Source: a virus (taxonomy: Duplodnaviria > Heunggongvirae > Uroviricota > Caudoviricetes). Taken from it: a stretch of 64,000 nucleotides of DNA. The notes under the pieces are model-generated. The model saw nothing but the letters and a program-made list of their open reading frames with translations. It did no database searches and was not told the DNA's origin. The position numbers and the translations under genes are program-made. Positions 26,033-59,339 of the stretch are shown one piece after another (within the stretch, counting starts at the first letter, position 1; the number at the start of each line of letters is the position of its first letter). The stretch lies in IMG/VR virus record IMGVR_UViG_3300035698_029829, positions 7,427-71,426 of that record. One strand, 5' to 3'.

Positions 26033-26108
26033 TGGTGGAGCCTACGGGAATCGAACCCGCCACCTCCTGCTTGCCGAGCAGGCGCTCTTCCATCTGAGCT
26101 AAGGCCCC
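26033..26108 (-). tRNA. tRNA-Ala(GGC), C33
   Basis: G3-U70, loop TC-GGC-AA, CCA. Confidence 0.9.
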
Positions 26109-26578
26109 AAAACCATCTTCTTTAGGAATTCCGGCACTGTATCGCCCTCGGCCTCCCGCACCAACCGGAACAGGGCGTCCGACGGCAACTCGTGCAGGCT
26201 CTCCCCATGTGTCCGCACCACTTCCGCTATCACTTCGTCAGTAAGCTCCAAGTACACCAGCGTCACGTCGTTCCCACCTGCGTCGATTACCTTGTCATCC
26301 AAAGCGGGCGGCACGTAGGAGTAGATACAGGCAAAGTTCTCCTCGGCGATATCGTCGTATCGTTGAATGGCGTACCGCAGTATACTGTGTACGCCGAATT
26401 TATTGGGGTTCAGGTGCCGGGCCGAAGCATGGACCGGCCTATGGAGGGCGTCTTCAAAGACAGGCGTGTACACCTGCTGCGCCAGGATAGGGATCAACCC
26501 TGGAAAGAACCAGGCCGTTGCCTGCTCTCCAACCCGGCGTGCAACAGGCGATCCTGCTTCTGGAACCTCTCTCTGCAC
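26099..26578 (-). CDS. Hypothetical protein
   Basis: 159-aa ORF; TAG stop is U8-A9-G10 of tRNA-Ala. Confidence 0.55.
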   Translation of the reverse strand: MQREVPEAGSPVARRVGEQATAWFFPGLIPILAQQVYTPVFEDALHRPVHASARHLNPNKFGVHSILRYAIQRYDDIAEENFACIYSYVPPALDDKVIDAGGNDVTLVYLELTDEVIAEVVRTHGESLHELPSDALFRLVREAEGDTVPEFLKKMVLGP

Positions 26579-26745
26579 TCCTTCAATTCCTCCTCAGTCT
26601 CAGCGCCCAACGCATCGATCACCGCTGATTCATACTCATCCTCGTTGAAATCCTCAAGCTTTGGGCGTGCCTCCTCGATTTCATCTTCATACTCAAAGAT
26701 CCCGATCAAGATCGCCTTACGCTCATCCTGACCTCGTTGCCTCAT
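26494..26745 (-). CDS. Small acidic hypothetical protein
   Basis: SD AGAGGAGG. Confidence 0.5.
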   Translation of the reverse strand: MRQRGQDERKAILIGIFEYEDEIEEARPKLEDFNEDEYESAVIDALGAETEEELKECRERFQKQDRLLHAGLESRQRPGSFQG

Positions 26746-27400
26746 ATAAATGCCTCCTCTTGATGTAGTCAGCCACCTCGGGCGTTACCAGGCCATCCAG
26801 CGGCCCTCTGGCTGCCGCACGACGGCGTACGTCGGTGGAGGATACTTCCATGTCTTCCGTCGATAAAAAGGCCAAGAGACCCTCCTCGTGCGTCCAGAGA
26901 CCCCTTCCAAAGTTGGACCAAGCCGTCGGCGCAGGAAAAACCTCGGGCGGAGGCGGAGGGTCATATCCCAGGCGCGTAAACACCACTATATCCGCCTGCC
27001 GAAGCAGATCCTGATACCAACGCCATGTTGGCAACGTCGGGTAAGTATCTGCGCCCACCAAGAGCACCGGCCGCCCGACGGCAGCCGTCAATTCCTCCAC
27101 GGTATCGACGGTGTAACTCACGGTGTCGCGCCGCAACTCCACATCGCTCGCTTCTAAGCCTTCGTACCCGGCTACAGCCAGCTTCACCATGTGAAAGCGG
27201 TGTTCGCCGGAGGCACGCGGGCCATTGGGTTTGTAAGGGCTAACGTAGGTAGGCACAAGCAACACCCGCCGCAGACCAAGTGTTTGTTGAGCATCCTCCG
27301 CTTTACGGAGATGGCCCAGATGAATCGGGTCGAAGGACCCACCAAAGAGACCGATGCGCCCACGCACGAAGCTAAGTAGCTGCGGATGTGGCTTATCCAT
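26723..27400 (-). CDS. nadD: Nicotinate-nucleotide adenylyltransferase
   Basis: LFGGSFDPIHLGHL, SPYK, VSYTVDT, GAD, VSSTDVR. Confidence 0.93.
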   Translation of the reverse strand: MDKPHPQLLSFVRGRIGLFGGSFDPIHLGHLRKAEDAQQTLGLRRVLLVPTYVSPYKPNGPRASGEHRFHMVKLAVAGYEGLEASDVELRRDTVSYTVDTVEELTAAVGRPVLLVGADTYPTLPTWRWYQDLLRQADIVVFTRLGYDPPPPPEVFPAPTAWSNFGRGLWTHEEGLLAFLSTEDMEVSSTDVRRRAAARGPLDGLVTPEVADYIKRRHLYEATRSG

Positions 27401-27458
27401 ACGAAAAAGCTACCAGTCTTCTCAGAGTTTGTCAAGAGTATTCATGGTACGAAACTGA

Positions 27459-27532
27459 TACGCGGGGCGGGACTCGAACCCGCATAAAAGCAGCTTGTAA
27501 GGCTGCCGCCTGGCCAATTAGGCGACCCGCGC
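27459..27532 (-). tRNA. tRNA-Val(TAC)
   Basis: Loop CT-TAC-AA, A73; atypical D arm. Confidence 0.82.
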
Positions 27533-27569
27533 GCATAGTAGCCCTTCCCAGGCTCGAACCGAAAATCTC

Positions 27570-28049
27570 TTAAATGATGGACAGCCCGATGCCGTCAGAA
27601 TACACGGTGATCGAATCATGGTTGCCTGAAATAATTACGTTAGGCTGCCCGTCAATAAACTCCCCACCTTCGCAAGTCAAAGTGATTGGAAAGGTCCCCG
27701 CTCCACCAGATCCGTCTTTGATTACCACCCTTCGATTGCTGGCCACGATCTGAGCGGTCATCCACCGAAGCACGCAAAACCCCATTGTTGCCCGAGTAAC
27801 ATGAAGAATTGCATCATCCGCGAGAATGTCATAATTCGCGACGTTGACGATTGTCGGGGGCTTTGCATTGATAGCCTCCCAGCAAACGCCACCGACACCG
27901 TCGGCCACGATGTGCCAGCCAGCCGTGACGCCTGTACTCAGGATGTCGATGCCTTCGGGGAAACCCAAGATCTTCCACGTTTCACCGCTGTCCTCGGTAT
28001 ACTCCCAATGACCTCCTCTGAGTCGTACATTGAACCAAGGCCCAGGCAT
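27570..28049 (-). CDS. Putative virion/fibre-associated protein
   Basis: C-terminal IKDGSG.AG..PIT.....IDG....SITVYSDG motif seen in phage fibre-type domains. Confidence 0.5.
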   Translation of the reverse strand: MPGPWFNVRLRGGHWEYTEDSGETWKILGFPEGIDILSTGVTAGWHIVADGVGGVCWEAINAKPPTIVNVANYDILADDAILHVTRATMGFCVLRWMTAQIVASNRRVVIKDGSGGAGTFPITLTCEGGEFIDGQPNVIISGNHDSITVYSDGIGLSII

Positions 28050-28169
28050 AGTGACCCTCGCTATTGTTCTCCATCTATTATCTTCGAGAGAACTGCTCGT
28101 TGGCCACTAAGATAAAGCGTCGCTCAAACTTCAAAAAAATGATACAGAGAAGGATTCGAGCCCCAAGTC

Positions 28170-29504
28170 CTAAGAGTGAATTTCCACGAATCCCGTTGTT
28201 GAGACCCGCATGTGGATTAGCCCAGTCAGATCTTCTTGGATAATAATTTTCAGTCTGTCCAAATCCTTGTGCTTCAGAATAATCGGGACCGGGAGCTTGA
28301 GGCTGACGACAAGGACGGTATTGGTGCCGTCACCATCAGCTTGGTAAGTGGTTCCAGCCCACCAAAGGAGTTCGCCTAAACTGTGGATGGTCTCTGAGGT
28401 GACACGTACACCGCCCTGCCATTGCTCGTAGCGATAGCCCTCCAGGAGTGTCTCTCCCAGGATCTTATCGTAAGCCAATGCAGGAGGCGTAGCAGCCAAA
28501 GCATCCACGAAATAATGACGAACCTCCGTGATATGCAACCAAGTACCGGCATCGGGGCTGACTTCGTACTCTACGATACCAGCGCCGCCGCCCTCATCCT
28601 CCCACTCGATCAAGTCGATGTACACCATCAAAAGCGCGTCTTTAATTTTAATCCTGACGCTTGAGACTGTCTTCCCGACCAAATCCAAATCCGTAAGAGG
28701 GACGATAAAACGCTGCCATTCATCCAACGCAGCAGTATCCAGATAGTCTTCGATGTTGACTTTGTTCCCGACGGCACCACCAGCAGCGTCCTTACCCCAG
28801 AACTCAATGTGTTTTCCGGCTTTCCAGCTTGTAATGTAGATCCACCCGGAAACCACGTCGTAAGTTGTAAGATCCAGAGGAGCGCCTGCGGTGAAGGCAG
28901 CCTCGCCGTCCCTACCGGCAGCAATAGCATCAACGGACCTGCCGGAACCAGGGCAGCTCACGACATCACTGGTGTTGCACTTGGTGATGTCATGTGACGG
29001 GTCGGCGATGATGGACACCACCGCCCCTGTCGCCGTCGCCGACACCCCTGTGATTGTATCAAGCTCGGCGGCGAGGGCCGTAGCCGTTGCATCGTTGTCC
29101 CCTCCGACGAGGTTCCAATCAACACCTTCGGTGATGGTCGTGTCCGCTCCGCCAACCCCAATAGTCTGAGTGTCATTGGCGCAGTTGTTCGCATTGGTGA
29201 TGGTGATAACTGCTTGCTTGGCGTGCGTATCATCAGCCACAAAATCCCAAGTTCCCTTAATCGCAAGAGCAGTCCAGAAATTTTGATCCCCGCCGTCGTA
29301 GATACCCAGCGGAACACCAGCGAGGCCACCAGGGATCGCCATCTCCGCCCCGTAGTCATCATTGAGAAAAAACTTGTACGCAGGGTCGAATATTTTCAAC
29401 GGACGGGTAGCAACAACGGCCGCGCGGGTTTCGTCCCCTTGGGCATTGTCAACTGCCGCTTGGAGGCCGGTTTCAGAATCGGCTATTAAGGTCCTGAGCG
29501 CCAT
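28170..29504 (-). CDS. Hypothetical protein (possibly structural)
   Basis: 444-aa Ala/Gly/Thr/Asp-rich ORF. Confidence 0.65.
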   Translation of the reverse strand: MALRTLIADSETGLQAAVDNAQGDETRAAVVATRPLKIFDPAYKFFLNDDYGAEMAIPGGLAGVPLGIYDGGDQNFWTALAIKGTWDFVADDTHAKQAVITITNANNCANDTQTIGVGGADTTITEGVDWNLVGGDNDATATALAAELDTITGVSATATGAVVSIIADPSHDITKCNTSDVVSCPGSGRSVDAIAAGRDGEAAFTAGAPLDLTTYDVVSGWIYITSWKAGKHIEFWGKDAAGGAVGNKVNIEDYLDTAALDEWQRFIVPLTDLDLVGKTVSSVRIKIKDALLMVYIDLIEWEDEGGGAGIVEYEVSPDAGTWLHITEVRHYFVDALAATPPALAYDKILGETLLEGYRYEQWQGGVRVTSETIHSLGELLWWAGTTYQADGDGTNTVLVVSLKLPVPIILKHKDLDRLKIIIQEDLTGLIHMRVSTTGFVEIHS

Positions 29505-29516
29505 TGATTACAGCCT

Positions 29517-30059
29517 TTAGTCAGTCGAGTGAAAGAAAATGGAAATTATTGCGTTGACAGTTGTGTTGGCTGAACTCCACAGCGTAAGCACGGTGTTCTT
29601 CGGGAGGATCAGATCAGACTTCCAGACGAACTTCCTTGTGCCTTCCAGGGCCAAAAAACTTATGCGGTCAACCTCATCGCCGGTGGTCAGTTGCAAATCG
29701 TCGCCCTGCTGACAAACACAATCTGCCAACCGACCGGACCCCACATTGCGATTCACCGGTACTAGGTCGGTAGGAGCGTTGGGAGTCCCAGCATTGCGAA
29801 TCTCAGTATATAACTCCGTATCGGCTAAAACGAACGCCTTGATGCTGCTGATAAATAGATCGGTGTCGGACTCGTTCTTAATGAAAAGAAGGCACTTGTT
29901 CACGCCTCCGGCAGCCTGGTCCAACACGACCGAGTAGGCGTCCCCGTGCTCATGGTTTACATGATGCTGTAGTTCGACGGCAATGGCATTCGTCAACAGC
30001 ATATTCTCATTGGTCACTTTTGCACCGTGACCACCACCAGACGCGTCTTTAATAATCAT
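29517..30059 (-). CDS. Hypothetical protein (possibly structural)
   Basis: 180-aa ORF in operon. Confidence 0.6.
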   Translation of the reverse strand: MIIKDASGGGHGAKVTNENMLLTNAIAVELQHHVNHEHGDAYSVVLDQAAGGVNKCLLFIKNESDTDLFISSIKAFVLADTELYTEIRNAGTPNAPTDLVPVNRNVGSGRLADCVCQQGDDLQLTTGDEVDRISFLALEGTRKFVWKSDLILPKNTVLTLWSSANTTVNAIISIFFHSTD

Positions 30060-30262
30060 CCTGGTTCTCCTTCTGTGTCTTCCTCGCCCAGTTTCTCTCC
30101 GGCAAACTCAGCAAGATAAAGGTTGGTTTTAACCGCCTCAATCAAGATCAATTCCAAAAGCTCCCTGGTGTCCAGATTCTTCAGGTCGGCAAGGGTAAGT
30201 AATGTCCCGTCTGTCGCCTGGATTTTGGTAGACTTAAAATGACTCACTAGACAATCCACCAT
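30056..30262 (-). CDS. Hypothetical protein
   Basis: Overlaps next gene by 4 nt. Confidence 0.5.
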   Translation of the reverse strand: MVDCLVSHFKSTKIQATDGTLLTLADLKNLDTRELLELILIEAVKTNLYLAEFAGEKLGEEDTEGEPG

Positions 30263-30344
30263 TCAGTTTTCCACTTGTTATCTTCTTCGGGAAGGCTGTT
30301 CGTCTGCCACTGAATAGAGCGTCGCTCAAACTTCAAGAAAATGA

Positions 30345-30426
30345 TGCCCAGAGGGGGATTCGAACCCCCACGCCCGAAGGCCCTGGCGTTTGAAACCAGG
30401 TCGTCTGCCAATTCCGTCATCTGGGC
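30345..30426 (-). tRNA. tRNA-Leu(CAA)
   Basis: Loop TT-CAA-AC, variable arm. Confidence 0.9.
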
Positions 30427-30501
30427 TTAGGTTTGTTGATAGTGAAACGGGAAATATGAGACACAAAAGGATTTGTTGCTAGTGGACGAGACACAAACTG
30501 A

Positions 30502-30574
30502 AGCGGGCAATGGGACTCGAACCCACGACCTTCTGCATGGCAAGCAGATGCTCTACCAACTGAGCTATACCCGC
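30502..30574 (-). tRNA. tRNA-Gly(GCC)
   Basis: Loop TT-GCC-AT, U73. Confidence 0.92.
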
Positions 30575-30768
30575 ATATCGTAAAACTCCACCACGCACGG
30601 CACCAGGTCTCCGGCGTCCGGCAACGACGGCCTAAAGCCGTCCTCACGCGCCTTAAACCCATCGAAAACGGCTTGTACGGCCCGCGCCTCGGCGTCCTCG
30701 CAGCTCTCGGCATCGAGGATAAGCCCCAGTTCATAGCCGTACCCTCGCCGCTTGTTCAAAAGCAGCAC
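30565..30768 (-). CDS. Hypothetical protein
   Basis: TAG stop is U8-A9-G10 of tRNA-Gly. Confidence 0.45.
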   Translation of the reverse strand: MLLLNKRRGYGYELGLILDAESCEDAEARAVQAVFDGFKAREDGFRPSLPDAGDLVPCVVEFYDMRV

Positions 30769-30832
30769 GTGGTACGCCCTGGTGGTCTTCTTCTTCGTCA
30801 GACTACCCTTTGTCTTCGAAAAATACCAAAAA

Positions 30833-31258
30833 TCAGTCCTTCTTTAGCAGATCGTACCCGTAATACCAAGCCCTTTCAGCCTCACGGTAATCACGCAGCC
30901 AACGGTTGTTGCGCTCCCGCAAATAGCTCTCGGTCGGCGAAAGGGGGTACCGGCACTCCCTGCCTTCCTTAGCAGCCCGGTAACCCGCCTTAATGGCGCG
31001 TTCGAGATCTCGATAAGCCCACTCGGTCAGCAGGTGTTCAAAGGGAATGAATCCCCGTCCTCGGTAAAGTTCGCGGCGCTCTTCCTTGCAGCGCTTCGCC
31101 GCCGCGCGCAAGCGCCGGACCTCGATATGGATGATTTCGGGGTAGCGGCCACGCCAACGCGCACGTCGGGTGCTCTTGTGGTGGTAATTCTCTTCGGATT
31201 GGAGGTTCCGGCGCACCGGAACGGGCGGAATGCCGTCACGCTTCTCGTACTTACCCAT
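30833..31258 (-). CDS. Arg-rich hypothetical protein
   Basis: SD AAGGA; downstream of promoter at 31374. Confidence 0.55.
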   Translation of the reverse strand: MGKYEKRDGIPPVPVRRNLQSEENYHHKSTRRARWRGRYPEIIHIEVRRLRAAAKRCKEERRELYRGRGFIPFEHLLTEWAYRDLERAIKAGYRAAKEGRECRYPLSPTESYLRERNNRWLRDYREAERAWYYGYDLLKKD

Positions 31259-31390
31259 GTTGGTTTCCTTTCGGTTATGCTAAACCTAAAAACCGCATGG
31301 GTTCCTCCTTTCAGTTGTGTGAACGCACAAAGCGCGATCTTGCAGACAGCATCATCGCAGAGCACACAAGGTTTGTCAAGAACTTTTTGA

Positions 31391-31722: not shown

Positions 31723-31743
31723 AGCACCTCCCAACACTACTGA

Positions 31744-31827
31744 TGCGAACGGGGGGAATCGAACCCCCACAACCGTAAGGTCACAGGCATCTCGGGCCTG
31801 CGTGTCTACCAGTTCCACCACGTTCGC
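31744..31827 (-). tRNA. tRNA-Leu(GAG), C33 copy
   Basis: Loop CC-GAG-AT, variable arm. Confidence 0.85.
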
Positions 31828-31831
31828 AAAC

Positions 31832-32748: not shown

Positions 32749-32790
32749 GACAAGTCCTCCTCAATACCTATCTTACCACGCGCGAGCTAA

Positions 32791-32872
32791 TGCGAGGCAG
32801 GGGATTCGAACCCCTACGCCCGAAGGCCCTCGGGTTTAGGCCGAGGTCGTCTGCCAATTCCGTCAGCCTCGC
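32791..32872 (-). tRNA. tRNA-Leu(TAA), C33
   Basis: Loop CC-TAA-AC. Confidence 0.88.
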
Positions 32873-32890
32873 ATAGATAATAAAAATAGG

Positions 32891-33522: not shown

Positions 33523-33527
33523 TTAAG

Positions 33528-33602
33528 TTACCAGGGAAGGAATCGAACCTCCAGTCTTCGAGCTTTTAACGACTCGACGCGCTACCACTGCACCACCCGG
33601 TA
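33528..33602 (-). tRNA. tRNA with expanded (8-10 nt) anticodon loop, identity unclear
   Basis: TACCGGG/CCTGGTA, normal D and T arms, TCGAG-TCGTTAAAAG-CTCGA. Confidence 0.65.
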
Positions 33603-33606: not shown

Positions 33607-33681
33607 TGGTGCGCCAGGTAGGAATTGAACCCACGTGGGCGGAGTTAGAACCCGCTGCCTAAACCATTCGGCCACTGGCGC
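33607..33681 (-). tRNA. Amber suppressor tRNA (CTA)
   Basis: GCGGG-TT-CTA-AC-TCCGC anticodon arm, intact cloverleaf, A73-CCA. Confidence 0.8.
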
Positions 33682-36461: not shown

Positions 36462-36593
36462 TGACCGCGAGAGTTGGCGGTAACGGTGATTACTACGGGG
36501 ATCGAACCCGCATGACCCTTTCGGGTCGTCAGTTTTGTGGACTGATGCCTAAACCAATTCGGCGAAGTAACCGGTACCTGTGCTGCGCGGCCA
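36462..36593 (-). ncRNA. Y RNA-like module carrying a complete class II tRNA (anticodon ACA)
   Basis: TGGCCGCG/CGCGGTCA, CAGCACAG/CGCCAACTCT loop, N8 stem continuous with acceptor GGTTACT/AGTAATC. Confidence 0.72.
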
Positions 36594-37614: not shown

Positions 37615-37687
37615 GGCCGACGACAGGAATCGAACCTGCAACATCCGCATTACAGGTGCGGTGCTCTACCAATTGAGCTACGTCGGC
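37615..37687 (-). tRNA. tRNA-Thr(TGT), C33
   Basis: Loop CC-TGT-AA. Confidence 0.88.
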
Positions 37688-37693: not shown

Positions 37694-38038
37694 TGGACGT
37701 GCGGGGAATTGAACCCCGGTCCTGAATGGTCCAGATTGAGCTACTACGTGCGTAGTCCGCGATTTAATGTCGCCGGTCGCGCTCCCACGGACGGGATCAC
37801 TATGGCCTTTTCCGCCTTTATCTCGGTTAATCACCGACGGAGTCAATCAACCCAGCCACCTGTTTGTGACGCCTCTTCCACTCCCGTTGGCCCGGAACAG
37901 AGAAACGGGTCGCTTAATTAAGCGGCCAGGAGTTCAATGTCGGCATCTGAACTTTGGTCAGTTTTTTACGAGGCCAACTGACCAACCTCGGCACGCAACT
38001 TTCACCTTCACACATCCAGTCGAATCCGATTCACGCCC
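37694..38038 (-). ncRNA. ssrA: tmRNA
   Basis: 5' GGGCGTG..GGATTCGAC, 3' T arm and CACGTCC-A with G3-U70; tag (A)DQSSDADIELLAA* after AAAAAACT. Confidence 0.92.
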
Positions 38039-48549: not shown

Positions 48550-48693
48550 GAGTCCGGCGGCGAGAGTGAGCGGCGTGGGGGTATTGGCTCACTTGGTGGG
48601 AGTTGAACCCACGTCCTTCAGATTAATAGTCTGCTGCTCTACCATCAGAGCTTCAGGTGAAGTACCCCACGCCTGTGCTGCGCCGCCAGGCTC
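48550..48693 (-). ncRNA. Y RNA-like module carrying a complete tRNA-Asn-like body (anticodon ATT)
   Basis: Begins about 14 nt after the Ro60 stop; GGCGGCG/CGCCGCC, CAGCACAG/CGCTCACTCT, N8 stem; tRNA at 48585-48660 with U1-A72, G73, CCA. Confidence 0.78.
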
Positions 48694-52357: not shown

Positions 52358-53051
52358 TCACGATCTCCCTTTTCTATCAAAAAAACGATCCAATTCACTT
52401 CGCACCAGCTCCCACACCTCATCGGGGGTACCGCTGGCGTCGATCCGCACGATGCGCCCCTGTTCCTCGGTGTACCGACGGCCGTAACCATTACGCACCC
52501 GACGGTGAAAGTCGAGAGCCTTCTGCTCGAAGCGATCCTCACGCTGATCCTCGGGCAACTGCTCTGCCCTCTTATAGGCACGAGCCAACCCCGCCTCGAC
52601 CGGCACGTCAAACCAAAGTGTCAGGTCGGGGATGAGCCCCGGCCGTACAGCTTCGTCGATCACCTGAAAATTACGAACCGTTGGAAAACCGGGCACTGAC
52701 CCCGCGTATTCTCCCAACCGAGAATAAACCTGGTAAACCCACGTCGAGTCTTGGTAGCGGTCGCAAAGCACCCAGATGCCCTTGGCTAACGTTGGTACGA
52801 TAACCTCTTGCGTCAGTTGCCGCCGAGCAGCCAAGTAGAGCAGTAGCTCCACCATCGGGTCCATCGCTTTATTTCGTGCATCGAGGAGGACAGTACGAAT
52901 GCCGTCGCAGATCGGCGTGCCGCCGGGATCGGCCCAGTCCAACAACGGAGATGTTGTGCCTCTCCGCCAAGTATAAAGCCGCCCTGGTACTCTGAGTGGT
53001 CTTACCACTACCCTCCCCGCCCTCGAAAGTGATAAACGGTGCAGGCATCAA
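52358..53051 (-). pseudogene. tmk: Thymidylate kinase split by a +1 frameshift near 52940
   Basis: FITFEGGEGSGKTTQ in ORF 52869-53051; DPGGTP, ELLLYLAAR.Q, CDRY..ST..YQ, PDLT in ORF 52358-53008. Confidence 0.85.
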
Positions 53052-53710
53052 TTTTGATCCTTGTCGTCCGGCTTTTTGTTGACATCAAACTGACCCAAGT
53101 CCTGTGCAGACGCGCCAAGACGGAAGCTCTTCACACGTCTGGAGGAACCGAGCATCGCGGAACGAAAACCGTGGCTATGGGTCGCGAAGTTGGAGGCGTT
53201 GACCGTATCGATTCCCAGACCACCCGCCATGCCGAAGGCGTCGATATTCGCACCCAGGAAAATGAACTCCCACCGGCGAGATGCCTGGCGCTCCTCGATC
53301 ATTTTCTTGATCTGATCCAGCTTGTACTCCCGACTGGAATTCTCCTCACCGTCGGTCATGATGACCGCGATGATCTTGTCAGGCTGCTGGTCCTTCGGAT
53401 TTGTCGCAATCTCATCTTCGATCAGACGAATCGTCGAGCCGACCGCGTCGATCAACGCCGTCCCGCCACCCGTTCTGTAGGTGCTTTCGTCCAGCGTTGG
53501 TACATCCTTGATCGGTACACTGATATGCACCCGTTTCACCTCTGTATCGAAGAGGACCATGCTTAAGCGCGCATCACCAGGCTCCTTCTGCTGTTCGGTT
53601 AGAAAGGCGTTGAAGCCCCCGATCACATCGTTTTCTTTGCCGCACATCGATCCGCTCGTGTCGATGACGACGGCGATCTCCACCTTTAGCTCTCTCGGTT
53701 TCGTATCCAT
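53048..53710 (-). CDS. von Willebrand factor A domain protein
   Basis: VIDTSGSM, T.L.DA.G, MTDG.ENSS.EY, FIFLGAN. Confidence 0.88.
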   Translation of the reverse strand: MDTKPRELKVEIAVVIDTSGSMCGKENDVIGGFNAFLTEQQKEPGDARLSMVLFDTEVKRVHISVPIKDVPTLDESTYRTGGGTALIDAVGSTIRLIEDEIATNPKDQQPDKIIAVIMTDGEENSSREYKLDQIKKMIEERQASRRWEFIFLGANIDAFGMAGGLGIDTVNASNFATHSHGFRSAMLGSSRRVKSFRLGASAQDLGQFDVNKKPDDKDQN

Positions 53711-53931: not shown

Positions 53932-53977
53932 AGTGCCTCCTCGTCGTCTCTTCCTATTCTTATCTTACCACCTAAAA

Positions 53978-54049: not shown

Positions 54050-54093
54050 TCATTTTATAGCAAGAGTGGGACTCGAAAATAGAAGATACGATC

Positions 54094-54774
54094 ATGAAGC
54101 CCCAATTTTCTCCAGCTGAGTTCGCCAGCGCAAAAGGTTTTGCAAAACTACCTCTGATGTGCTGCCAATGTGGCAGCATCTTTTTCACGTCAAGAGTTTC
54201 AATCCAACAACAAATCAGCCATCCAGAGCGGAACCGCCTAAAATTTTGCGGTCGAAAATGCCTTAGCGAAGCACAAAATAAGACCAGAACCCTTACGTGC
54301 ACAAATTGCAAAGTTCCCATCAAACGAAAATTCAGCCAATTCAAGAAATCCAAAAACCATTTTTGTTCTCGCTCGTGCGCGGCCAGTTGGAACAATCTCC
54401 ACAAACAAAAAGGAACTCGCGTTTCCAAGCTAGAAATCTTCCTGCAAAAAGAGCTTTCCGTAGCCTATCCAGAAAGAAAGTTCCTCTTCAACGACAAAAC
54501 AGCCATAGATTCAGAGCTGGACATTTACATTCCAGACATTGCTCTTGCCTTTGAACTAAACGGTCCCACTCATTATAAACCTCTCTTCGGATTACGAAAA
54601 TTCGCCTCCATCCAACAGGGCGATGCCAAGAAAGTGCACGCTTGCAGGAACTACGGCATCGCGCTGTACACCCTGAACGTCAGTGGAATGAATAAATTTT
54701 CAAAGAGCCAAGCGATTCCATTCCTAAAAAAGATTCAAAAAATTATTGACTCGAACTCTGAACTCGTTCAATAA
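54094..54774 (+). CDS. Zn-finger plus PD-(D/E)xK/Vsr-like putative homing endonuclease
   Basis: Repeated CxxC..FC motifs, ELDIYIP...LAFELNG..HY; AT-rich, opposite strand to neighbours. Confidence 0.7.
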   Translation: MKPQFSPAEFASAKGFAKLPLMCCQCGSIFFTSRVSIQQQISHPERNRLKFCGRKCLSEAQNKTRTLTCTNCKVPIKRKFSQFKKSKNHFCSRSCAASWNNLHKQKGTRVSKLEIFLQKELSVAYPERKFLFNDKTAIDSELDIYIPDIALAFELNGPTHYKPLFGLRKFASIQQGDAKKVHACRNYGIALYTLNVSGMNKFSKSQAIPFLKKIQKIIDSNSELVQ

Positions 54775-55255
54775 TCTCCGTTGTGGAGGTGAGGACCTCC
54801 AGATCCGGCACAATCACCAGCCTCGCACCATTCTCCAGGCCCACAATCTTCTCAGAAGTCTCGGTTCCCTCGAACGCCTGGTTCTTAAAAAGGGACACTT
54901 CAGCCCGGCGAAACAGGTAGCCCGCCAGCGCGAGATCGCTCAGGTCATTCAAAATGAAGGTGAAGTCCACCGGCTTGAGGGAATCCACGCCAAGCGAACG
55001 GAGCTGTTCATTCATGATCGGTCGATCTAACCCCTTCTCCACACGCACCACGTGATCCGCGTCCACACCAACAACCAACAAATCGCACAGCCCCCGACAC
55101 CGCTTCAAATACAGGATGTGGTAAGCGTGGATCATGTCAAAGACCCCAGTGGTGATGCCGACCCGCATCAACCTCTTCGAAAGCCGCTGATTTAGGTATG
55201 CTTCAACTACGTCGGTCTCCGGACCACTACGGATATCGAAAATCATCGTCCTCAC
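54743..55255 (-). CDS. Cytidylyltransferase-family (RfaE/TagD-like) protein
   Basis: TGVFDMIHAYH, LVVGVD.D, K...RPI, STT.II. Confidence 0.8.
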   Translation of the reverse strand: MRTMIFDIRSGPETDVVEAYLNQRLSKRLMRVGITTGVFDMIHAYHILYLKRCRGLCDLLVVGVDADHVVRVEKGLDRPIMNEQLRSLGVDSLKPVDFTFILNDLSDLALAGYLFRRAEVSLFKNQAFEGTETSEKIVGLENGARLVIVPDLEVLTSTTEIIERVQSSSQ

Positions 55256-56184
55256 TCTCTCACTTTAACCCAGGATGGCCGTCCCGGCAGATCACGCACG
55301 TTCAAGATGGGCGGGCACTGCTTAGCCTTCCACGCACCACGGTTCGTCAGACGCACGATCTCCCCATAAGCCTCGGACGCCTTCAAGGAAGGCCATCCAC
55401 ACTGGTTAACGAGATAATCCATAAGCTCGGTCTGATCCAGACAGCCTTGAAAGTAGAAAAAGTACAGAGCCTGATCCAGCTGTTCGTAGGGCATCAACTC
55501 GTCTTCATCCAACTGTCCTTCGCTCAACTCCGCCGTGGGCTTGCGCGTAAAGACTTTCTCGGGAATCATCTGCTGCGGGTACGCCTCGTTGTAGGCACGA
55601 CCCACCTCGTAGGCTTCCGTCTTGAACAAACATCCGATCACCTCGACGGCCCCCACGGTATCGCCGTAGAGCGTGCAGTAGCCCGTCAGCGTCTCCGAGA
55701 GATTGCTGGTGGCCAGCACGAGCCGATCCAACTTATTGGCCAAGGTCATCAGTATGGTTCCACGCACACGGGCTTGGAGATTCTCTCGTGCCACGCCCTC
55801 TACGCGGAACGAGCCCGTGGGCACATCATTCATCAGCATGGCGTTCATTTCGACCAGCGCCGCAATGGGAACCGTATCAAACTGGCACCCCAACGACACC
55901 GCCACCTGATCGGCGAGCTGCTTCGACTCATCCGAGGTCACGGCCGACGGCATGAATACCGCCAGCACGTTCTGAGGTCCGAGGGTTTTACACGCAACGG
56001 CTGCTACGAGCGCAGAATCAAAGCCACCCGACAGACCAACGATGGCCTGCGTGTAGCCCGCTTCGCGAAAGAACTGGTGCAACAGAGCCACCAGATCATC
56101 GAAAATCCTGAGCCATACGGTAGTCACGGGAACCTCCCAGTTGAGTCTGGTACCAAGTCTACCAAATCGACCAGGGTTTGTCAA
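55252..56184 (-). CDS. nadE: NAD+ synthetase (no glutaminase domain)
   Basis: GLSGGFDSA, ENLQARVR, TSN.SE...GY.TLYGD, FKTE, PTAEL..GQ.DE. Confidence 0.93.
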   Translation of the reverse strand: MTNPGRFGRLGTRLNWEVPVTTVWLRIFDDLVALLHQFFREAGYTQAIVGLSGGFDSALVAAVACKTLGPQNVLAVFMPSAVTSDESKQLADQVAVSLGCQFDTVPIAALVEMNAMLMNDVPTGSFRVEGVARENLQARVRGTILMTLANKLDRLVLATSNLSETLTGYCTLYGDTVGAVEVIGCLFKTEAYEVGRAYNEAYPQQMIPEKVFTRKPTAELSEGQLDEDELMPYEQLDQALYFFYFQGCLDQTELMDYLVNQCGWPSLKASEAYGEIVRLTNRGAWKAKQCPPILNVRDLPGRPSWVKVRE

Positions 56185-56192
56185 GAGTTTTG

Positions 56193-56269
56193 TGGTGGGC
56201 CGGGACGGGATTGAACCGCCGACGCCTGCGGCTTCAACGCAGCGCTCTACCGAACTGAGCTACCGACCC
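56193..56269 (-). tRNA. tRNA-Phe(GAA)
   Basis: Loop TT-GAA-GC, CCA. Confidence 0.9.
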
Positions 56270-56277
56270 ATGATAAG

Positions 56278-56348
56278 CACCGGTGACAGGATTCGAACCT
56301 GCATCGCGTCTTTTGGAGAGACGTTGCCTAACCATTGGCGACACCGGC
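56278..56348 (-). tRNA. tRNA-Trp(CCA)
   Basis: Loop CT-CCA-AA, G73. Confidence 0.88.
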
Positions 56349-56353
56349 AAAAG

Positions 56354-56491
56354 TTGTGGCGAGAGTGAGCGAAGAGGGAACGTAAAAGTGCTCTACCAAC
56401 TGAGCTACGGGACCCGAAGGCCCCGACGGGACTTGAACCCGCGACCACTCGATTTGGAATCGAAGTAGCCCTCTCCTGTGCTGCGCCACAA
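56354..56491 (-). ncRNA. YrlA-type Y RNA (permuted tRNA domain, acceptor closed by UUCG)
   Basis: TTGTGGCG/CGCCACAA, module motif, TTCGA-TTCCAAA-TCGAG, T arm, CGGGGCC-TTCG-GGTCCCG, D arm. Confidence 0.82.
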
Positions 56492-56501
56492 TTTCTAAAA
56501 T

Positions 56502-56576
56502 TGGAGACGACGGTCGGAGTCGAACCGACCTATAAGGTTTTGCAGACCTTCGCCTAAACCGCTCGGCCACGTCGTC
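56502..56576 (-). tRNA. tRNA-Cys(GCA)
   Basis: Loop CT-GCA-AA, U73, CCA. Confidence 0.9.
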
Positions 56577-56725
56577 AAAAGTAACGACAACTCGGACAGG
56601 CATCACACCTGCCATCTCCTCCGGCTGAGGGCGCATACTTGAAAGCACCAACCAAGCGCAATCTTTCCACTCCCCATCCCCTTGTGGGCTCTATACTTGA
56701 GCTACGAGTCACCGGGTTTAACTGT

Positions 56726-58117
56726 TTACTGAGAAGCCAGAAATTCCCGAAGAAACATCCGGCCACCTTCCTCATCCTCAAACTTCCCGTCAAGCTGCGC
56801 TTCGAAACAGGCATCCAGCACAGGACGAAAGTGCTTGCCTGGGTTCCAACCCAGATCCATCAGGTGCCGACCCATCACAATGGGTTTCGGGGCCTGATCT
56901 CGCACGCCGAGTTCTTCGATGCGTTCCAAGAGCCACGTTGCAAACCGGTTATCAGGCTTCAAAGGAGGCCGACCGGCCTGATCGCACGCGGCTACCCGCA
57001 ACAACCGATCTACGCGCTTAACGCGACGAGCGAGCCGCCGGATCGCCGAACTAGAGGCTTTTACCTCGAAAAGTTCAAGGGGCTTCAGGTGTTCCACAAC
57101 CAAGTCGCAAACCTCGGTGTCGAGGCCGTGTTCGTTGGTCAAGCGTGCCAGGAAGCTCCGCGTCGGTGCGGCCCCCGCCGCTTCGTGTCCCTTCGACTTC
57201 CAGCGTCCATCTAAGAACGCGGTCGTCTCAGGCTTACCAAAGTCATGACAGAGTACCGCCAACCCGACCACCAGGTCTTCGCGAGAATCGCCGGTGCGTG
57301 TATGCGCGAAGGCATCCAGACAGTGCTTGGTGTGTTCAAACACATCCCCCTCGGGATGCCACGCTGGATTTTGCGGGCAATCCACGAGAGCCTCGACCTC
57401 CGGAAAGAACCGAAGCCACCCTACCTCGCGCAGGAAGTCGAGTCCAAGCGACGGTCGAACTCCCCGCAGGAGTAACTTCTGCCACTCATCGAACAGGCGT
57501 TCCTTCGGCAGATCCTCGATGTCGCCGCGCCGACAAACCTCAACGAGATCGTCGGACGGCTCAAAGTCGAACCGTGCCAGGAACTGCGCCGCTCGTAAGA
57601 CCCTCAATGGGTCCTCCAAAAAAGCGTCGGGGTTGGGGTGACCGGGCATCCGAGAAACCGGATGTAACAGGCGTGCCCGCAGATGCGTCTGACCGTCAAA
57701 CGGATCAAACAGATCATCGGTTAACGGGTCCCAGGATAAAGAGTTGATGGTGAAATCTCGACGTGCCGCCGCTTCAGCGACGGTCATGGTTGGATCGGAG
57801 TTGATCTCGAAACCTCGGTGTCCGAGACCTCGCTTGCTCTCGCGGCGAGGGATGGACACGTCGACGGGGAAATCCTTCAGTTTGAGTACACCGAAATCTT
57901 TACCAACCAGGTCAAGTGCGAAACCATGCGACAGCGTGTCGACCAATCTGTCGGGGCTAAGGCCGAAAACCTCTACGTCGAGATCATTCGGCTCATTCTC
58001 CAATAGAAGATCGCGCACACAACCGCCAACGAGTAGCGCGCGTCCACGCGCCCTCTCTACGCTCCGGCAAAGGGAAAGCAGCGCTTCCCGCGCCGGAAGC
58101 CGATGAAGTGCTTCCAT
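56726..58117 (-). CDS. cca: CCA-adding enzyme/tRNA nucleotidyltransferase with HD domain
   Basis: VGGCVRD, DLDVE, RRDFTIN, EDPLRVLR, ERL..EW.K, H.EGDV..H, LCHDFGK. Confidence 0.9.
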   Translation of the reverse strand: MEALHRLPAREALLSLCRSVERARGRALLVGGCVRDLLLENEPNDLDVEVFGLSPDRLVDTLSHGFALDLVGKDFGVLKLKDFPVDVSIPRRESKRGLGHRGFEINSDPTMTVAEAAARRDFTINSLSWDPLTDDLFDPFDGQTHLRARLLHPVSRMPGHPNPDAFLEDPLRVLRAAQFLARFDFEPSDDLVEVCRRGDIEDLPKERLFDEWQKLLLRGVRPSLGLDFLREVGWLRFFPEVEALVDCPQNPAWHPEGDVFEHTKHCLDAFAHTRTGDSREDLVVGLAVLCHDFGKPETTAFLDGRWKSKGHEAAGAAPTRSFLARLTNEHGLDTEVCDLVVEHLKPLELFEVKASSSAIRRLARRVKRVDRLLRVAACDQAGRPPLKPDNRFATWLLERIEELGVRDQAPKPIVMGRHLMDLGWNPGKHFRPVLDACFEAQLDGKFEDEEGGRMFLREFLASQ

Positions 58118-58147
58118 GATGTTCTCCCTTCGCGTTAATGTTGATAA

Positions 58148-58221
58148 CTCCTGGAGAGGGAATCGAACCCCCGACATCTCGGTTAACGGCCGAGCGCTCT
58201 GGCCTGCTGAGCTATCCAGGA
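58148..58221 (-). tRNA. tRNA-Asn(GTT), C33
   Basis: U1-A72, G73, loop CC-GTT-AA. Confidence 0.9.
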
Positions 58222-58898
58222 ATAATTCCGTACCTTTTAGCCCACTTCCGAACCGCATTGTCGGTCACTCCATACCGTTTGCCGATCTGCGTGAATGGGA
58301 TCTTCTCGTCAATCAGATTCATGAGTTCGTCTTTCGAGGGCCACTCGACTTTTCTGCGCGCCAACTGAAAGCACTTCTGTGAACAGAACTTCTGCCTTAT
58401 TTTCTTAGGAGCCCCACAGATAGGACAGGGATCAACAGGGGCCTCGCGCTTCGGAAAGGCTCTCGACTCATCGCGAAGGCTAGAAATACGCACGCGATAA
58501 TCCTCGGCCCAGAGCGGCTCTCGCCCGTTGCTCCCTTTTAACGGGGCAACCCTCAGCGAGCACCAGCTAGTACCAACAGCCTCTACCGGAACCAAATAAA
58601 CCTCATCCAGTTCAGGACAAAACACCCCAAAAAACTCACACTGGCCTCGGTAATTTCTTGTACCTCGCCCTCGGTGAGCATAGCTACTACACAAATTGAA
58701 CCCTATCGCACCGTTCTTCAAGCGACCCGTCTTAACCTGAATCCGCACAAAAACGCCGTCGCGATCAAGCACCAGGTCGTAGCGTTGATTATCGCCGAAA
58801 GGAAACAAGACAACCTCAGCCGCCTTCAACAAAGAAGCCATCACAGCCGCTTCTGACCGTTCGCCTATCGCCTTCGAGTTCATCTGCACCTCCAACAA
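58212..58898 (-). CDS. PD-(D/E)xK endonuclease of the group I intron-associated type
   Basis: G..SE, RYDLVLD..G..VRIQVKTG; CPIC and C-terminal HTH; TAG stop is U8-A9-G10 of tRNA-Asn. Confidence 0.78.
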   Translation of the reverse strand: MLEVQMNSKAIGERSEAAVMASLLKAAEVVLFPFGDNQRYDLVLDRDGVFVRIQVKTGRLKNGAIGFNLCSSYAHRGRGTRNYRGQCEFFGVFCPELDEVYLVPVEAVGTSWCSLRVAPLKGSNGREPLWAEDYRVRISSLRDESRAFPKREAPVDPCPICGAPKKIRQKFCSQKCFQLARRKVEWPSKDELMNLIDEKIPFTQIGKRYGVTDNAVRKWAKRYGIIPG

Positions 58899-58949
58899 AG
58901 TTCTACGTTATCTTCATTGGAGGTGCAGGTTCGATGTTCAATAAATAGG

Positions 58950-59077
58950 AGCGGCGAGAGTAGGTGATAAGGGGTTTTCTTACCCCGCATTGTGCGGGGT
59001 CTTGGAGTCGAACCAAGTTGCTCTAGCTTTGGAAGCTATTGCTTAACCGAAGTATCCCTGATCTGTGCTGCGCCGCT
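58950..59077 (-). ncRNA. Y RNA-like gene with a differently permuted tRNA-Trp mimic
   Basis: AGCGGCG/CGCCGCT, module motif, CTT-CGGTT-AAG, TAGC-TTCCAAA-GCTA, T arm, ACCCCGCA-CAA-TGCGGGGT. Confidence 0.75.
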
Positions 59078-59097
59078 TTTTCGTATTCATGGAACAG

Positions 59098-59172
59098 TTC
59101 GGGAGGCAGGACTCGAACCTGCACATTCCAGCTTCAAAGGCTGGCGACCTTGCCAAATTAGTCCACTCCCGA
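59098..59172 (-). tRNA. tRNA-Gln(TTG)
   Basis: U1-A72, loop CT-TTG-AA. Confidence 0.88.
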
Positions 59173-59184
59173 TCAAAATCGTAT

Positions 59185-59259
59185 TGGTGCTCCCGAGGAG
59201 AATTGAACTCCTCCCTCCGGGTTGAAGGCCCGGTATCCTAACCGATAGACGACGGGAGC
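59185..59259 (-). tRNA. tRNA-Glu(TTC), C33
   Basis: Loop CC-TTC-AA, CCA. Confidence 0.88.
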
Positions 59260-59264
59260 ATAGT

Positions 59265-59339
59265 TGGCTTGGGGCCGAGGAATCGAACCTCGATTGACGA
59301 AGTCAGGGTCCGCCGTCCTGCCGGTTAGACGAGCCCCAA
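59265..59339 (-). tRNA. tRNA-Gln(CTG), C33
   Basis: U1-A72, G73, loop CC-CTG-AC, CCA. Confidence 0.85.

What the first reader, a model, noticed from the sequence alone, without database searches (positions are those of the whole stretch)
26033..59339. Seven tRNAs carry C33 instead of the near-universal U33
Seen: Ala(GGC) TC, Leu(GAG) CC, Leu(TAA) CC, Thr(TGT) CC, Asn(GTT) CC, Glu(TTC) CC, Gln(CTG) CC; also the ACA tRNA inside the 36.5-kb RNA. Thr(GGT) and Val(GAC) have A32. Established: U33 forms the anticodon U-turn and is almost invariant in bacteria; anticodon nucleases read loop bases. Inference: repeated selection for nuclease-resistant loops, or C-to-U editing.
Basis: partly seen in the sequence, partly recalled or inferred. 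Interest (0 to 1): 0.7.

Follow-up and report, generated by a model that had tools for sequence, protein, structure and literature searches.

The report
Phage tRNAs with C33 loops
Eight of the 50 tRNA genes of this uncultured large phage really carry C where nearly every decoding tRNA has the "invariant" U33. These genes are otherwise intact, so they are probably working tRNAs that host enzymes acting at that U can no longer cut or read, though no such enzyme is known for this phage.

Summary
ARAGORN and Rfam both place C at position 33 in Ala(GGC), Leu(GAG), Leu(UAA), Thr(UGU), Asn(GUU), Glu(UUC), Gln(CUG) and the ACA tRNA-like gene. Thr(GGU) and Val(GAC) have A32.

This is not decay. All 50 tRNAs keep G53-T54-T55-C56-R57-A58-C61 and the D-loop GG, and only pyrimidines occur at 33 in normal 7-nt loops.

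The rate is 16%, against 1.3% (15/1139) in other phage tRNAs (p about 2e-6). It was 0 of 73 for cellular tRNAs outside arrays and 0 of 39 for the dispersed tRNAs of one bacterium whose 32-gene tRNA array has six C33.

The only sizeable relative fragment (11 kb, syntenic, about 69% protein identity) has C33 in 5 of 12 tRNAs. It shares Glu(UUC) and Asn(GUU) despite rewritten stems. A second relative has U33 in Thr(UGU).

The tRNA region also encodes RtcB, a CCA-adding enzyme, Ro60, vWA, RlaP and a tmRNA.

Best reading (about 0.45): working tRNAs hardened against host enzymes that cut beside or read U33. Near-neutral pyrimidine drift (about 0.3) is not excluded. Editing has no support.

The general idea is published, but I found no paper on the position-33 pattern. 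This scan has already reported the same pattern on several other phage genomes.

The parts
26033..26108 (-). tRNA-Ala(GGC), loop U32 C33 GGC A37 A38, encoded CCA
   Evidence: ARAGORN; Rfam 61.7 bits; no structural deviations
31742..31828 (-). tRNA-Leu(GAG), loop C32 C33 GAG A37 U38
   Evidence: ARAGORN; Rfam 53.4 bits
32018..32103 (-). Second tRNA-Leu(GAG) with normal U33 (UU GAG GG); a diverged isodecoder of the C33 copy
32790..32873 (-). tRNA-Leu(UAA), loop C32 C33 UAA A37 C38; body resembles Leu(CAA) at 30345-30426
   Evidence: ARAGORN; Rfam 35.9 bits when searched alone
36485..36572 (-). tRNA-like gene with anticodon ACA, class II body, loop C32 C33 ACA A37 A38. Probably part of a Y-RNA-like gene, not a decoding tRNA
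37615..37687 (-). tRNA-Thr(UGU), loop C32 C33 UGU A37 A38. The relative L018 has U33 with the same anticodon stem
   Evidence: Rfam 70.3 bits; L018 comparison
58147..58222 (-). tRNA-Asn(GUU), loop C32 C33 GUU A37 A38. C33 is shared with the ortholog in L009
   Evidence: Rfam alignment
59185..59259 (-). tRNA-Glu(UUC), loop C32 C33 UUC A37 A38, encoded CCA. C33 is shared with the ortholog in L009
   Evidence: Rfam alignment
59265..59339 (-). tRNA-Gln(CUG), loop C32 C33 CUG A37 C38, encoded CCA. No counterpart in L009
   Evidence: Rfam alignment, 44.6 bits
22901..22973 (-). tRNA-Thr(GGU) with A32 (AU GGU AA)
   Evidence: A32 is 0.7% in 1018 other phage tRNAs
59856..59931 (-). tRNA-Val(GAC) with A32 and U38 (AU GAC GU). 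Its ortholog in L009 has U32 C33
19147..20337 (-). RtcB RNA ligase, which joins 2',3'-cyclic phosphate and 5'-OH ends (the ends that anticodon nucleases leave)
   Evidence: PHROG 1075, E = 1.7e-91
37694..38038 (-). Phage tmRNA (tag ADIELLAA)
   Evidence: ARAGORN; Rfam RF00023, 162.6 bits
48707..50926 (-). Ro60/TROVE protein
   Evidence: Pfam TROVE; PHROG 850
53048..53710 (-). vWA-domain protein, conserved in L009 (68.5% identity)
   Evidence: Pfam matches, all below the families' curated cut-offs; tblastn
56726..58144 (-). CCA-adding tRNA nucleotidyltransferase
   Evidence: PHROG 2244, E = 4e-64; homologs
62389..63294 (-). RlaP, an RNA-repair-pathway nucleotidyltransferase
   Evidence: Pfam PF10127, E = 7.9e-21

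Best explanation
The seven clear C33 genes are working elongator tRNAs of the phage's own near-complete decoding set. In this lineage U33 has repeatedly been replaced by the only other base that the anticodon-loop fold tolerates.

The most likely reason the change is kept is that it removes the uridine that host anticodon-loop enzymes cut beside or use as a recognition element. Candidate enzymes:
- Nucleases that cleave 3' of U33: PrrC and RloC, and uridine-specific HEPN enzymes such as Cas13b6.
- Nucleases that cleave 5' of U33: CdiA-CT EC536.
- Loop-modifying enzymes for which U33 is a determinant: TsaBCDE for t6A37, and TGT, which needs U33-G34-U35.

The ribosome would still accept such a loop, at some cost. 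That cost would explain why only a subset of the tRNAs carries C33 and why relatives differ.

Shown: the C33 state, the integrity of the genes, the enrichment, the inheritance in a relative, the restriction to phage or mobile arrays, and the RNA-repair gene context.

Inferred: that these tRNAs are expressed and used, that C33 confers resistance, and who the attacker is.
For: 1. C33 is real in 8 genes.
2. The genes are not decaying. All 50 tRNAs keep G53, T54, T55, C56, R57, A58, C61 and the D-loop GG. The Ala, Thr, Asn, Glu and Gln C33 genes show no flagged deviation and no unpaired stem position.
3. Only pyrimidines occur at 33: 13 C and no purine in 61 seven-nucleotide-loop tRNAs of the window and L009.
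4. Enrichment: 8/50 against 15/1139 in other phage tRNAs, p = 1.7e-6. L009 has 5/12, p = 5e-7. The highest other locus has 3/15.
5. Inheritance: the syntenic relative L009 (CCA enzyme 69% identical) keeps C32-C33 in Glu(UUC) and Asn(GUU) although the tRNA bodies are only about 65-75% identical and the stems are rewritten. L009's C33 states recur in three independent assemblies.
6. C33 belongs to mobile tRNAs, not host tRNAs. It was 0/73 in cellular loci with two or fewer tRNAs and 15/106 in dense arrays. In one Pyrinomonadaceae genome it was 0/39 in dispersed tRNAs and 6/32 in the array.
7. Recurrence and persistence elsewhere. Ile(GAU) with a CC-GAU-AA loop occurs in 5 unrelated cultured phages at 64-78% identity. 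It occurs in 23 of 73 C-or-T viral pattern hits. The nearest-neighbour state agrees in 0.87 of cases against 0.60 for shuffled labels. Mycobacteriophage cluster C1 Val tRNAs with UC loops are each present in about 88-89% of 161 phages (PMC10264068 supplement).
8. Use: C33 tRNAs are the phage's only decoders for GCC/GCU (54% of Ala codons), AAC/AAU (all Asn), GAA, ACA and UUA. For Asn this leaves out the Asn(AUU) gene, which notes place inside a Y-RNA-like gene.
9. Context: RtcB, CCA-adding enzyme, Ro60, vWA, RlaP and tmRNA lie among the tRNAs.
10. Literature:
- PrrC cuts 3' of U33, and RloC cuts there too (PMC2610378).
- Cas13b6 cuts after uridines in anticodon loops, its paired cleavage termini flank U33 of tRNA-Val(GAC), and it releases GU from UGU loops (PMC13692257).
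- CdiA-CT EC536 cuts C32|U33 of tRNA-Ile(GAU) (PMC11724271).
- E. coli TsaBCDE cannot modify a U33C tRNA (PMC8887486).
- TGT needs UGU (Nakanishi 1994, as cited in PMC1635277).
- The general hypothesis is in PMC10264068.
Against: - No nuclease, host or expression data exist for this phage.
- U33C does not protect against gamma-toxin (PMC2275089) or colicin E5, which accepts any pyrimidine at 33 (PMC1635277). PARIS AriB reads positions 36-41, not 33 (PMC12409363).
- The C33 set shares no anticodon motif. One nuclease of narrow specificity therefore cannot explain it.
- 42 of the 50 tRNAs do not carry C33, including Lys(UUU), His, Asp and Tyr, which are classic nuclease targets.
- Position 33 differs in 3 of 12 window-L009 tRNA pairs. 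That is about the same rate as loop positions 32, 37 and 38 (5, 3 and 4 of 12; counted by hand). A closer relative has U33 in Thr(UGU). This looks as much like relaxed constraint as like selection.
- The overlap of C33 sets between the window and L009 (2 of 2) is not significant alone (hypergeometric about 0.15, my arithmetic).
- No PrrC/RloC-type ATPase (PF13166) was found in the bacterium that holds a C33-rich array.
Confidence: 0.45

Rival explanations
1. Near-neutral pyrimidine drift. Phage tRNAs only supplement the host pool, so selection on each is weak. U33-to-C is the mildest possible damage to the U-turn, and it drifts in and out by transitions with no benefit.
For: - Position 33 differs in 3 of 12 window-L009 tRNA pairs, about the rate of loop positions 32, 37 and 38.
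- Thr(UGU) is C33 here and U33 in L018 with the same stem.
- One viral/cellular Ile pair is identical except at position 33.
- The C33 set has no common anticodon.
- Away from Ile(GAU), C33 is enriched in NNC anticodons: 15/32 against about 20% (244/1205) of U33 tRNAs. Those are the tRNAs with the strongest first-codon-base pairing, which is where a weaker loop should hurt least.
Against: - The other near-invariant positions show no drift at all: 0/50 at 53-56, 58 and 61.
- C33 is kept in Glu(UUC) and Asn(GUU) across about 30% body divergence.
- C33 Ile tRNAs hold their state across a nearest-neighbour divergence of about 15%.
- The rate differs 12-fold between phages that all have redundant tRNAs. 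Simple relaxation does not predict that.
Confidence: 0.3
2. Deliberate hypomodification or decoding tuning. C33 is kept because it blocks host modification of the loop (t6A37, Q34) or changes decoding kinetics, not because it stops cleavage.
For: - E. coli TsaBCDE fails on U33C (PMC8887486). Thr(UGU), Asn(GUU), L009's Met(CAU) and the recurrent phage Ile(GAU) are all t6A-type tRNAs (anticodon ending in U, with A37).
- TGT needs U33-G34-U35, and Asn(GUU) has C33 in both phages.
- A37 is present in 62 of 63 C33 tRNAs.
Against: - Most C33 tRNAs here (Ala, both Leu, Glu, Gln) are substrates of neither enzyme.
- His, Asp and Tyr (GUN anticodons) keep U33.
- t6A normally helps ANN decoding, so losing it should cost fitness.
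- This reading overlaps with the best explanation and is hard to separate from it by sequence alone.
Confidence: 0.1
3. Non-decoding tRNAs: pseudogenes, or decoys that soak up host nucleases or synthetases.
For: - The ACA gene and Asn(AUU) appear to be embedded in Y-RNA-like genes (notes, not tested here).
- Gln(CUG) and Leu(UAA) have modest Rfam scores, 44.6 and 35.9 bits.
- The AriB paper raises the possibility that overexpressed viral tRNAs inhibit the nuclease (PMC12409363).
Against: - Cloverleaves are intact, with no unpaired stem positions in five of the seven.
- Thr, Asn and Ala score 62-70 bits.
- Without these genes the otherwise near-complete set would lack decoders for Asn, GCC/GCU, GAA, ACA and UUA.
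Confidence: 0.07
4. C-to-U (or C-to-pseudouridine) editing restores U33 in the RNA, so the genomic C is silent.
For: - Bacterial tRNA C-to-U editing exists: TrcP acts at position 32 in Vibrio cholerae (PMC9553926).
- Editing would make C and T equivalent and so explain the flips between relatives.
Against: - No CDA-fold deaminase (PF00383, PF14437) and no RluA-type pseudouridine synthase (PF00849) is found in the record.
- No known enzyme edits position 33, and it would have to act on at least seven different tRNA species.
- The record is only about 62% complete, and a host enzyme is not excluded.
Confidence: 0.03

Closest known systems
Nuclease-insensitive phage tRNAs: the hypothesis of van den Berg et al. 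2023 (PMC10264068). Its own data set includes mycobacteriophage cluster C1 tRNA-Val(GAC) and Val(CAC) with U32-C33 loops.
   Same: Intact phage tRNAs whose anticodon loops differ from cellular ones. The Val tRNAs carry C33 (Cali; supplement) and are listed as 'mutations' relative to the host.
   Different: That paper never names position 33 and has only about 2 C33 tRNAs among about 33. Here 7-8 of 50 tRNAs in other isoacceptors carry it. Host and nuclease are unknown here.
Phage T5 tRNA-Lys(UUU), Thr(UGU) and Asn(GUU), which neutralise the PARIS nuclease AriB (PMC12409363, PMC11464382)
   Same: This is the experimentally shown case of phage tRNA variants escaping an immune tRNase. Thr(UGU) and Asn(GUU) are among the C33 tRNAs here.
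   Different: AriB cuts at 40|41, and resistance maps to positions 39 and 41 and the D loop, not 33. Lys(UUU) here keeps U33.
Nucleases that act at U33: PrrC/RloC (PMC2610378), Cas13b6 and Cas13a (PMC13692257, PMC11042736), CdiA-CT EC536 (PMC11724271)
   Same: They cut directly 3' or 5' of U33. The Cas13 enzymes cut after uridine. Cas13b6 cleavage termini flank U33 of tRNA-Val(GAC), and Val is a C33 tRNA in L009 and in mycobacteriophages.
   Different: None has been tested on C33 substrates in the papers read (Cas13b6 was tested on U33A only). None is known in this phage's host.
[quoted passage not shown]
   Same: Many tRNA genes covering most amino acids, horizontally mobile, linked with homing endonucleases and acting together with RtcB under translational stress. 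Chromosomal arrays found here also hold C33 at 19-22% (L201, L178), and the L201 array abuts a Ro60 gene.
   Different: The window's 50 genes are spread over 38 kb among protein genes, below the array density criterion. Those papers do not report position 33.
Eukaryotic initiator tRNA-Met with C33 (PMC5041475, PMC9023262)
   Same: It is the one well-known class of functional tRNAs with C33, which shows that ribosomes can use such a loop.
   Different: Those are initiators acting in the P site. The tRNAs here are bacterial-type elongators of seven different specificities.

Membership tests
Nuclease-insensitive phage tRNAs (PMC10264068; the T5/PARIS case) | Intact tRNA gene carried by a phage | tested here: met
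   Myovirus-type record of 156.7 kb with a tail sheath gene; canonical cloverleaves
Nuclease-insensitive phage tRNAs (PMC10264068; the T5/PARIS case) | Anticodon stem-loop differs from the host's counterpart at a nuclease cleavage or recognition site | tested here: inconclusive
   It differs from the universal U33, which is a cleavage site of PrrC, RloC, Cas13b6 and CdiA-CT EC536. The host's own tRNAs are unknown.
Nuclease-insensitive phage tRNAs (PMC10264068; the T5/PARIS case) | A host nuclease cuts the host tRNA but not the phage tRNA, and the phage tRNA rescues infection | not testable with these tools
   Uncultured phage, host unknown
tRNA array units / L-arrays (PMC4758250) | At least 20 tRNA genes at two or more genes per kb | tested here: not met
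   50 genes in 38.2 kb is 1.3 per kb. Dense sub-clusters, such as 10 genes in 31.7-33.7 kb, have fewer than 20 genes.
tRNA array units / L-arrays (PMC8421152) | Association with homing endonucleases and RtcB | tested here: met
   RtcB; HNH and PD-(D/E)XK endonuclease genes
tRNA pseudogenes | Several departures from conserved positions, broken stems, low model scores | tested here: not met
   Positions 53-56, 58, 61 and the GG are intact in all 50. C33 genes score 35.9-70.3 bits, above the 29-bit threshold.
Initiator-type C33 tRNAs | CAU anticodon and initiator identity | tested here: not met
   The anticodons are GGC, GAG, UAA, UGU, GUU, UUC and CUG
Edited tRNAs (TrcP type, PMC9553926) | A deaminase (with or without a pseudouridine synthase domain) available to edit the site | tested here: not met
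   No PF00383, PF14437 or PF00849 match in the record. The record is about 62% complete and the host was not examined.
Edited tRNAs (TrcP type, PMC9553926) | U or pseudouridine at the site in the mature RNA | not testable with these tools
   Needs tRNA sequencing

The most novel reading that the evidence does not exclude
C33 marks a distinct, convergently evolved class of 'hardened' mobile tRNAs. They are carried by phages and by chromosomal tRNA arrays together with Ro60/RtcB-type repair genes. The U-to-C change blocks uridine-specific immune RNases (Cas13-like HEPN enzymes, PrrC/RloC) from cutting at position 33. For UGU loops it also stops release of the GU cyclic-phosphate signal that triggers cell death.
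Probability: 0.25. Interest if true: 0.8.

Novelty: new variant of a known kind. Interest (0 to 1): 0.6.

Why it matters
U33 is treated as invariant in elongator tRNAs and as the basis of the anticodon U-turn (PMC5041475). A phage lineage in which 16-42% of otherwise perfect tRNAs carry C33, together with the same change recurring only in mobile tRNA arrays, has two implications. First, ribosomes tolerate C33 more widely than assumed. Second, something in phage-host conflict favours or permits it.

It gives a simple, testable handle on which immune RNases or loop-modifying enzymes depend on U33. It also suggests a one-base design rule for nuclease-resistant tRNAs. Finally, C33 load could serve as a sequence marker of tRNA-targeting defence in the unknown hosts of uncultured phages.

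Tried and rejected
1. Close relatives in cultured phages and IMG/VR. Megablast of the tRNA region found only stray tRNA hits. Single-protein scans with the CCA enzyme and the methyltransferase found none.
2. The 444-aa protein at 28170-29504 as an anchor. Its homologs sit in unrelated small phages without tRNAs, so three look-ups were wasted.
3. CCA-enzyme profile in IMG/VR. It found only 34-38% identical enzymes in large phages with 0-3 tRNAs nearby.
4. tRNA-based DNA patterns for Cys and Thr. They hit unrelated low-GC phages, which I used only as baseline.
5. Metagenome scan with the cytidylyltransferase profile. It found only L009 again and a 1.85-kb fragment with two U33 Met tRNAs.
6. Editing enzymes in the record: none.
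7. PrrC/RloC-type ATPase in the phage and in the Pyrinomonadaceae genome with a C33-rich array: none.
8. NCBIfam and Pfam on the unnamed genes between the tRNAs gave nothing informative. The two 444-aa proteins are not paralogs.
9. The PARIS link for Thr(UGU) and Asn(GUU) is rejected as an explanation of C33, because AriB reads positions 36-41.
10. 'The host's own tRNAs have C33' could not be tested for this phage. In the one genome where it could be tested, it is false (0/39).
11. I found no paper in the library that describes C33 in phage tRNAs.

Full report
**What is there.** The window belongs to a single 156,689-bp viral record with 55% G+C, rated about 62% complete. It has a tail sheath gene, so it is a myovirus-type phage. 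ARAGORN finds 50 tRNA genes and a tmRNA, all on the minus strand between 21.7 and 59.9 kb. Rfam finds the tmRNA and 49 of the tRNAs in the whole-window scan. The fiftieth, Leu(UAA), scores 35.9 bits when its region is searched alone. No tRNA lies outside the window.

**The observation.** Positions 32-38 read from the ARAGORN coordinates give 41 U33, 8 C33 and one G in an 8-nt loop.
- Seven have C32-C33. Ala has U32-C33.
- Thr(GGU) and Val(GAC) have A32.
- Covariance-model alignments place the C of Asn, Glu and Gln opposite the consensus U33.
I count it apart and did not test that reading.

**Not decay.** All 50 genes keep G53, T54, T55, C56, R57, A58, C61 and the GG of the D loop. The Ala, Thr, Asn, Glu and Gln C33 genes have no flagged deviation and no unpaired stem position. 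So position 33 departs in 16% of genes while the other near-invariant positions depart in none. The replacement is always C.

The C33 tRNAs are also not spares. Together they are the phage's only decoders for GCC/GCU (54% of its Ala codons), AAC/AAU (all Asn, leaving out the Y-RNA-embedded Asn(AUU) gene), GAA, ACA and UUA.

**More than chance.**
- A first panel of 13 loci from other phages gave 9 C33 in 205 tRNAs.
- A pattern scan for one Ile(GAU) anticodon arm, with position 33 left open, brought in 80 viral loci with 1018 tRNAs. Apart from the selected Ile genes, 11 of 944 have C33.
- Pooled, the rate in other phage tRNAs is 15/1139 (1.3%), against 8/50 here (Fisher p = 1.7e-6). The highest other locus has 3 of 15.
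- The same pattern in prokaryotic genome assemblies gave no C33 in 73 tRNAs from loci with one or two tRNAs. Dense arrays of 6-32 tRNAs gave 15 C33 in 106.
- In one Pyrinomonadaceae genome the 39 dispersed tRNAs all have U33, while its 32-gene array has six C33.

In my samples, then, C33 occurs only in phage and mobile tRNA arrays and not in ordinary chromosomal tRNAs. This agrees with the textbook view of U33 as invariant in elongators (PMC5041475).

**Relatives.** The lineage is rare. The best relative is an 11-kb JGI contig (L009).
- Its CCA enzyme is 69% identical, and its gene and tRNA order match the window from Val(GAC) to the thymidylate kinase.
- Five of its 12 tRNAs have C33: Val(GAC), Glu(UUC), Asn(GUU), Cys(GCA) and one Met(CAU).
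- Glu(UUC) and Asn(GUU) share C32-C33 with the window although the bodies are only about 65-75% identical and the anticodon stems are rewritten.
- The same states appear in ENA and Logan assemblies of that phage, so they are not assembly errors.
- A 2.6-kb fragment of a closer relative (L018, methyltransferase 79% identical) has Thr(UGU) with the same stem but U33. A third fragment (L033) has two U33 Met tRNAs.
- Over 12 window-L009 pairs, position 33 differs in 3. That is about as often as positions 32, 37 and 38 (counted).

The lineage therefore has a high C33 load and keeps some C33 sites for a long time, yet it also flips others.

**Elsewhere.**
- Ile(GAU) with the loop CC-GAU-AA occurs in five unrelated cultured phages (hosts Xanthomonas, Caulobacter, Rhizobium and Aeromonas, plus phage DSS3_MAL1, whose record names no host). 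These tRNAs are 64-78% identical.
- In the viral scan, 23 of the 73 C-or-T hits have C.
- Among 105 distinct Ile tRNAs with that arm, C33 sequences are as diverged from each other as from U33 ones (32% mean). Nearest neighbours nevertheless share the state far more often than shuffled labels do: 0.87 against 0.60, with none of 3000 shuffles reaching it. That means several origins, with persistence after each.
- Mycobacteriophage cluster C1 Val(GAC) and Val(CAC) have UC loops. In the supplement of PMC10264068 each is present in about 88-89% of 161 phages.

**Context.** Among the tRNAs lie RtcB, a CCA-adding enzyme, Ro60/TROVE, a vWA protein, RlaP and a tmRNA. This is the kind of set that deals with broken RNA. 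RtcB joins the ends that anticodon nucleases leave. The chromosomal 32-gene array with six C33 is followed within about 100 bases by a Ro60 gene. L-arrays have been reported to act with RtcB under translational stress (PMC8421152).

**Mechanism.** The general idea that phage tRNAs escape host tRNases through anticodon-loop changes is published (PMC10264068) and has been shown for T5 against PARIS (PMC12409363). Several enzymes act exactly at U33:
- PrrC cuts 3' of it, and RloC cuts there as well (PMC2610378).
- Cas13b6 cuts after uridines in anticodon loops, its cleavage termini flank U33 of tRNA-Val(GAC), and it frees GU from UGU loops as a death signal (PMC13692257).
- CdiA-CT EC536 cuts C32|U33 of tRNA-Ile(GAU) (PMC11724271).
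- U33 is also a determinant for loop modification. E. coli TsaBCDE cannot place t6A on a U33C tRNA (PMC8887486), and TGT needs UGU.

C33 would blunt all of these, and eukaryotic initiators show that ribosomes can use a C33 loop. I therefore rate 'working tRNAs hardened against enzymes that cut or read at U33' as the most likely reading, at about 0.45.

**Against it.**
- Gamma-toxin and colicin E5 cut U33C substrates normally, and AriB does not read position 33.
- The C33 set has no common anticodon.
- Most tRNAs, including Lys(UUU), His, Asp and Tyr, keep U33.
- The flips between relatives fit relaxed constraint.
- Away from Ile, C33 is enriched in anticodons ending in C: 15/32 against about 20%. 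That suggests tolerance shapes where it can occur.

Near-neutral pyrimidine drift therefore stays a serious rival (about 0.3). Editing has a bacterial precedent (TrcP, PMC9553926), but no enzyme is present in the record. Decoy or pseudogene readings fit only the ACA gene.

**Novelty.** The kind is known: phage tRNAs with altered anticodon loops. A lineage-wide replacement of the 'invariant' U33, restricted to mobile tRNA sets, is not described in any paper I could find. This scan has already reported the same pattern on several other phage genomes. Those notes agree with mine but are not independent evidence.

Noticed in passing
L020, L021, L022, L029, L030 (cultured phages); L039-L118 (IMG/VR): tRNA-Ile(GAU) with the loop C32-C33-GAU-A37-A38 recurs in five unrelated cultured phages and in 23 of 73 C-or-T viral hits sharing one anticodon stem. 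The state is heritable but has several origins.
   Followed up: yes
L201 with L324, L325 (G001:C21:386841-392700, Pyrinomonadaceae MAG): A chromosomal 32-tRNA array with six C33 lies between ordinary housekeeping genes. A Ro60 (TROVE + vWA_Ro60) gene follows it directly, then an ABC ATPase and an EEP-family nuclease. The genome's 39 dispersed tRNAs all have U33.
   Followed up: partly
L178 (Candidatus Sulfotelmatobacter MAG contig DAIUEW010000040.1): An 18-tRNA array in under 2 kb has four C33: Ala(UGC), Ile(GAU), Thr(GGU) and Ser(CGA).
   Followed up: no
all C33 tRNAs pooled: Outside Ile(GAU), C33 is enriched in anticodons ending in C, which read GNN codons: 15 of 32 against about 20% of U33 tRNAs. 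It nearly always comes with A37 (62 of 63) and usually with C32 (55 of 63).
   Followed up: partly
window 33527-33602 and 33607-33681 (-): A tRNA with an 8-nt anticodon loop (CGTTAAAA) sits next to an intact amber-suppressor-type tRNA (CUA).
   Followed up: no
window 48585-48660 (-): A second Asn-type tRNA has anticodon AUU and A8. It lies directly behind the Ro60 gene.
   Followed up: no
window 21689-59931 (-): Only about 23 of the 50 tRNA genes encode their CCA end. The phage carries its own CCA-adding enzyme.
   Followed up: no
window 30345-30426 and 32790-32873 (-): Leu(CAA) and Leu(UAA) share nearly the same D arm, variable region and T arm, but their acceptor and anticodon stems differ. 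It looks as if only those parts were rebuilt.
   Followed up: no
L035 6106-6807, L036 3003-3704: Population variants of the L009 phage carry an HNH_2 endonuclease gene inserted after the thymidylate kinase gene. The JGI contig lacks it.
   Followed up: no
window 9154-9918 (-): A QueC-like gene (7-deazaguanine pathway) lies just upstream of the tRNA region. It could bear on DNA or tRNA modification.
   Followed up: no
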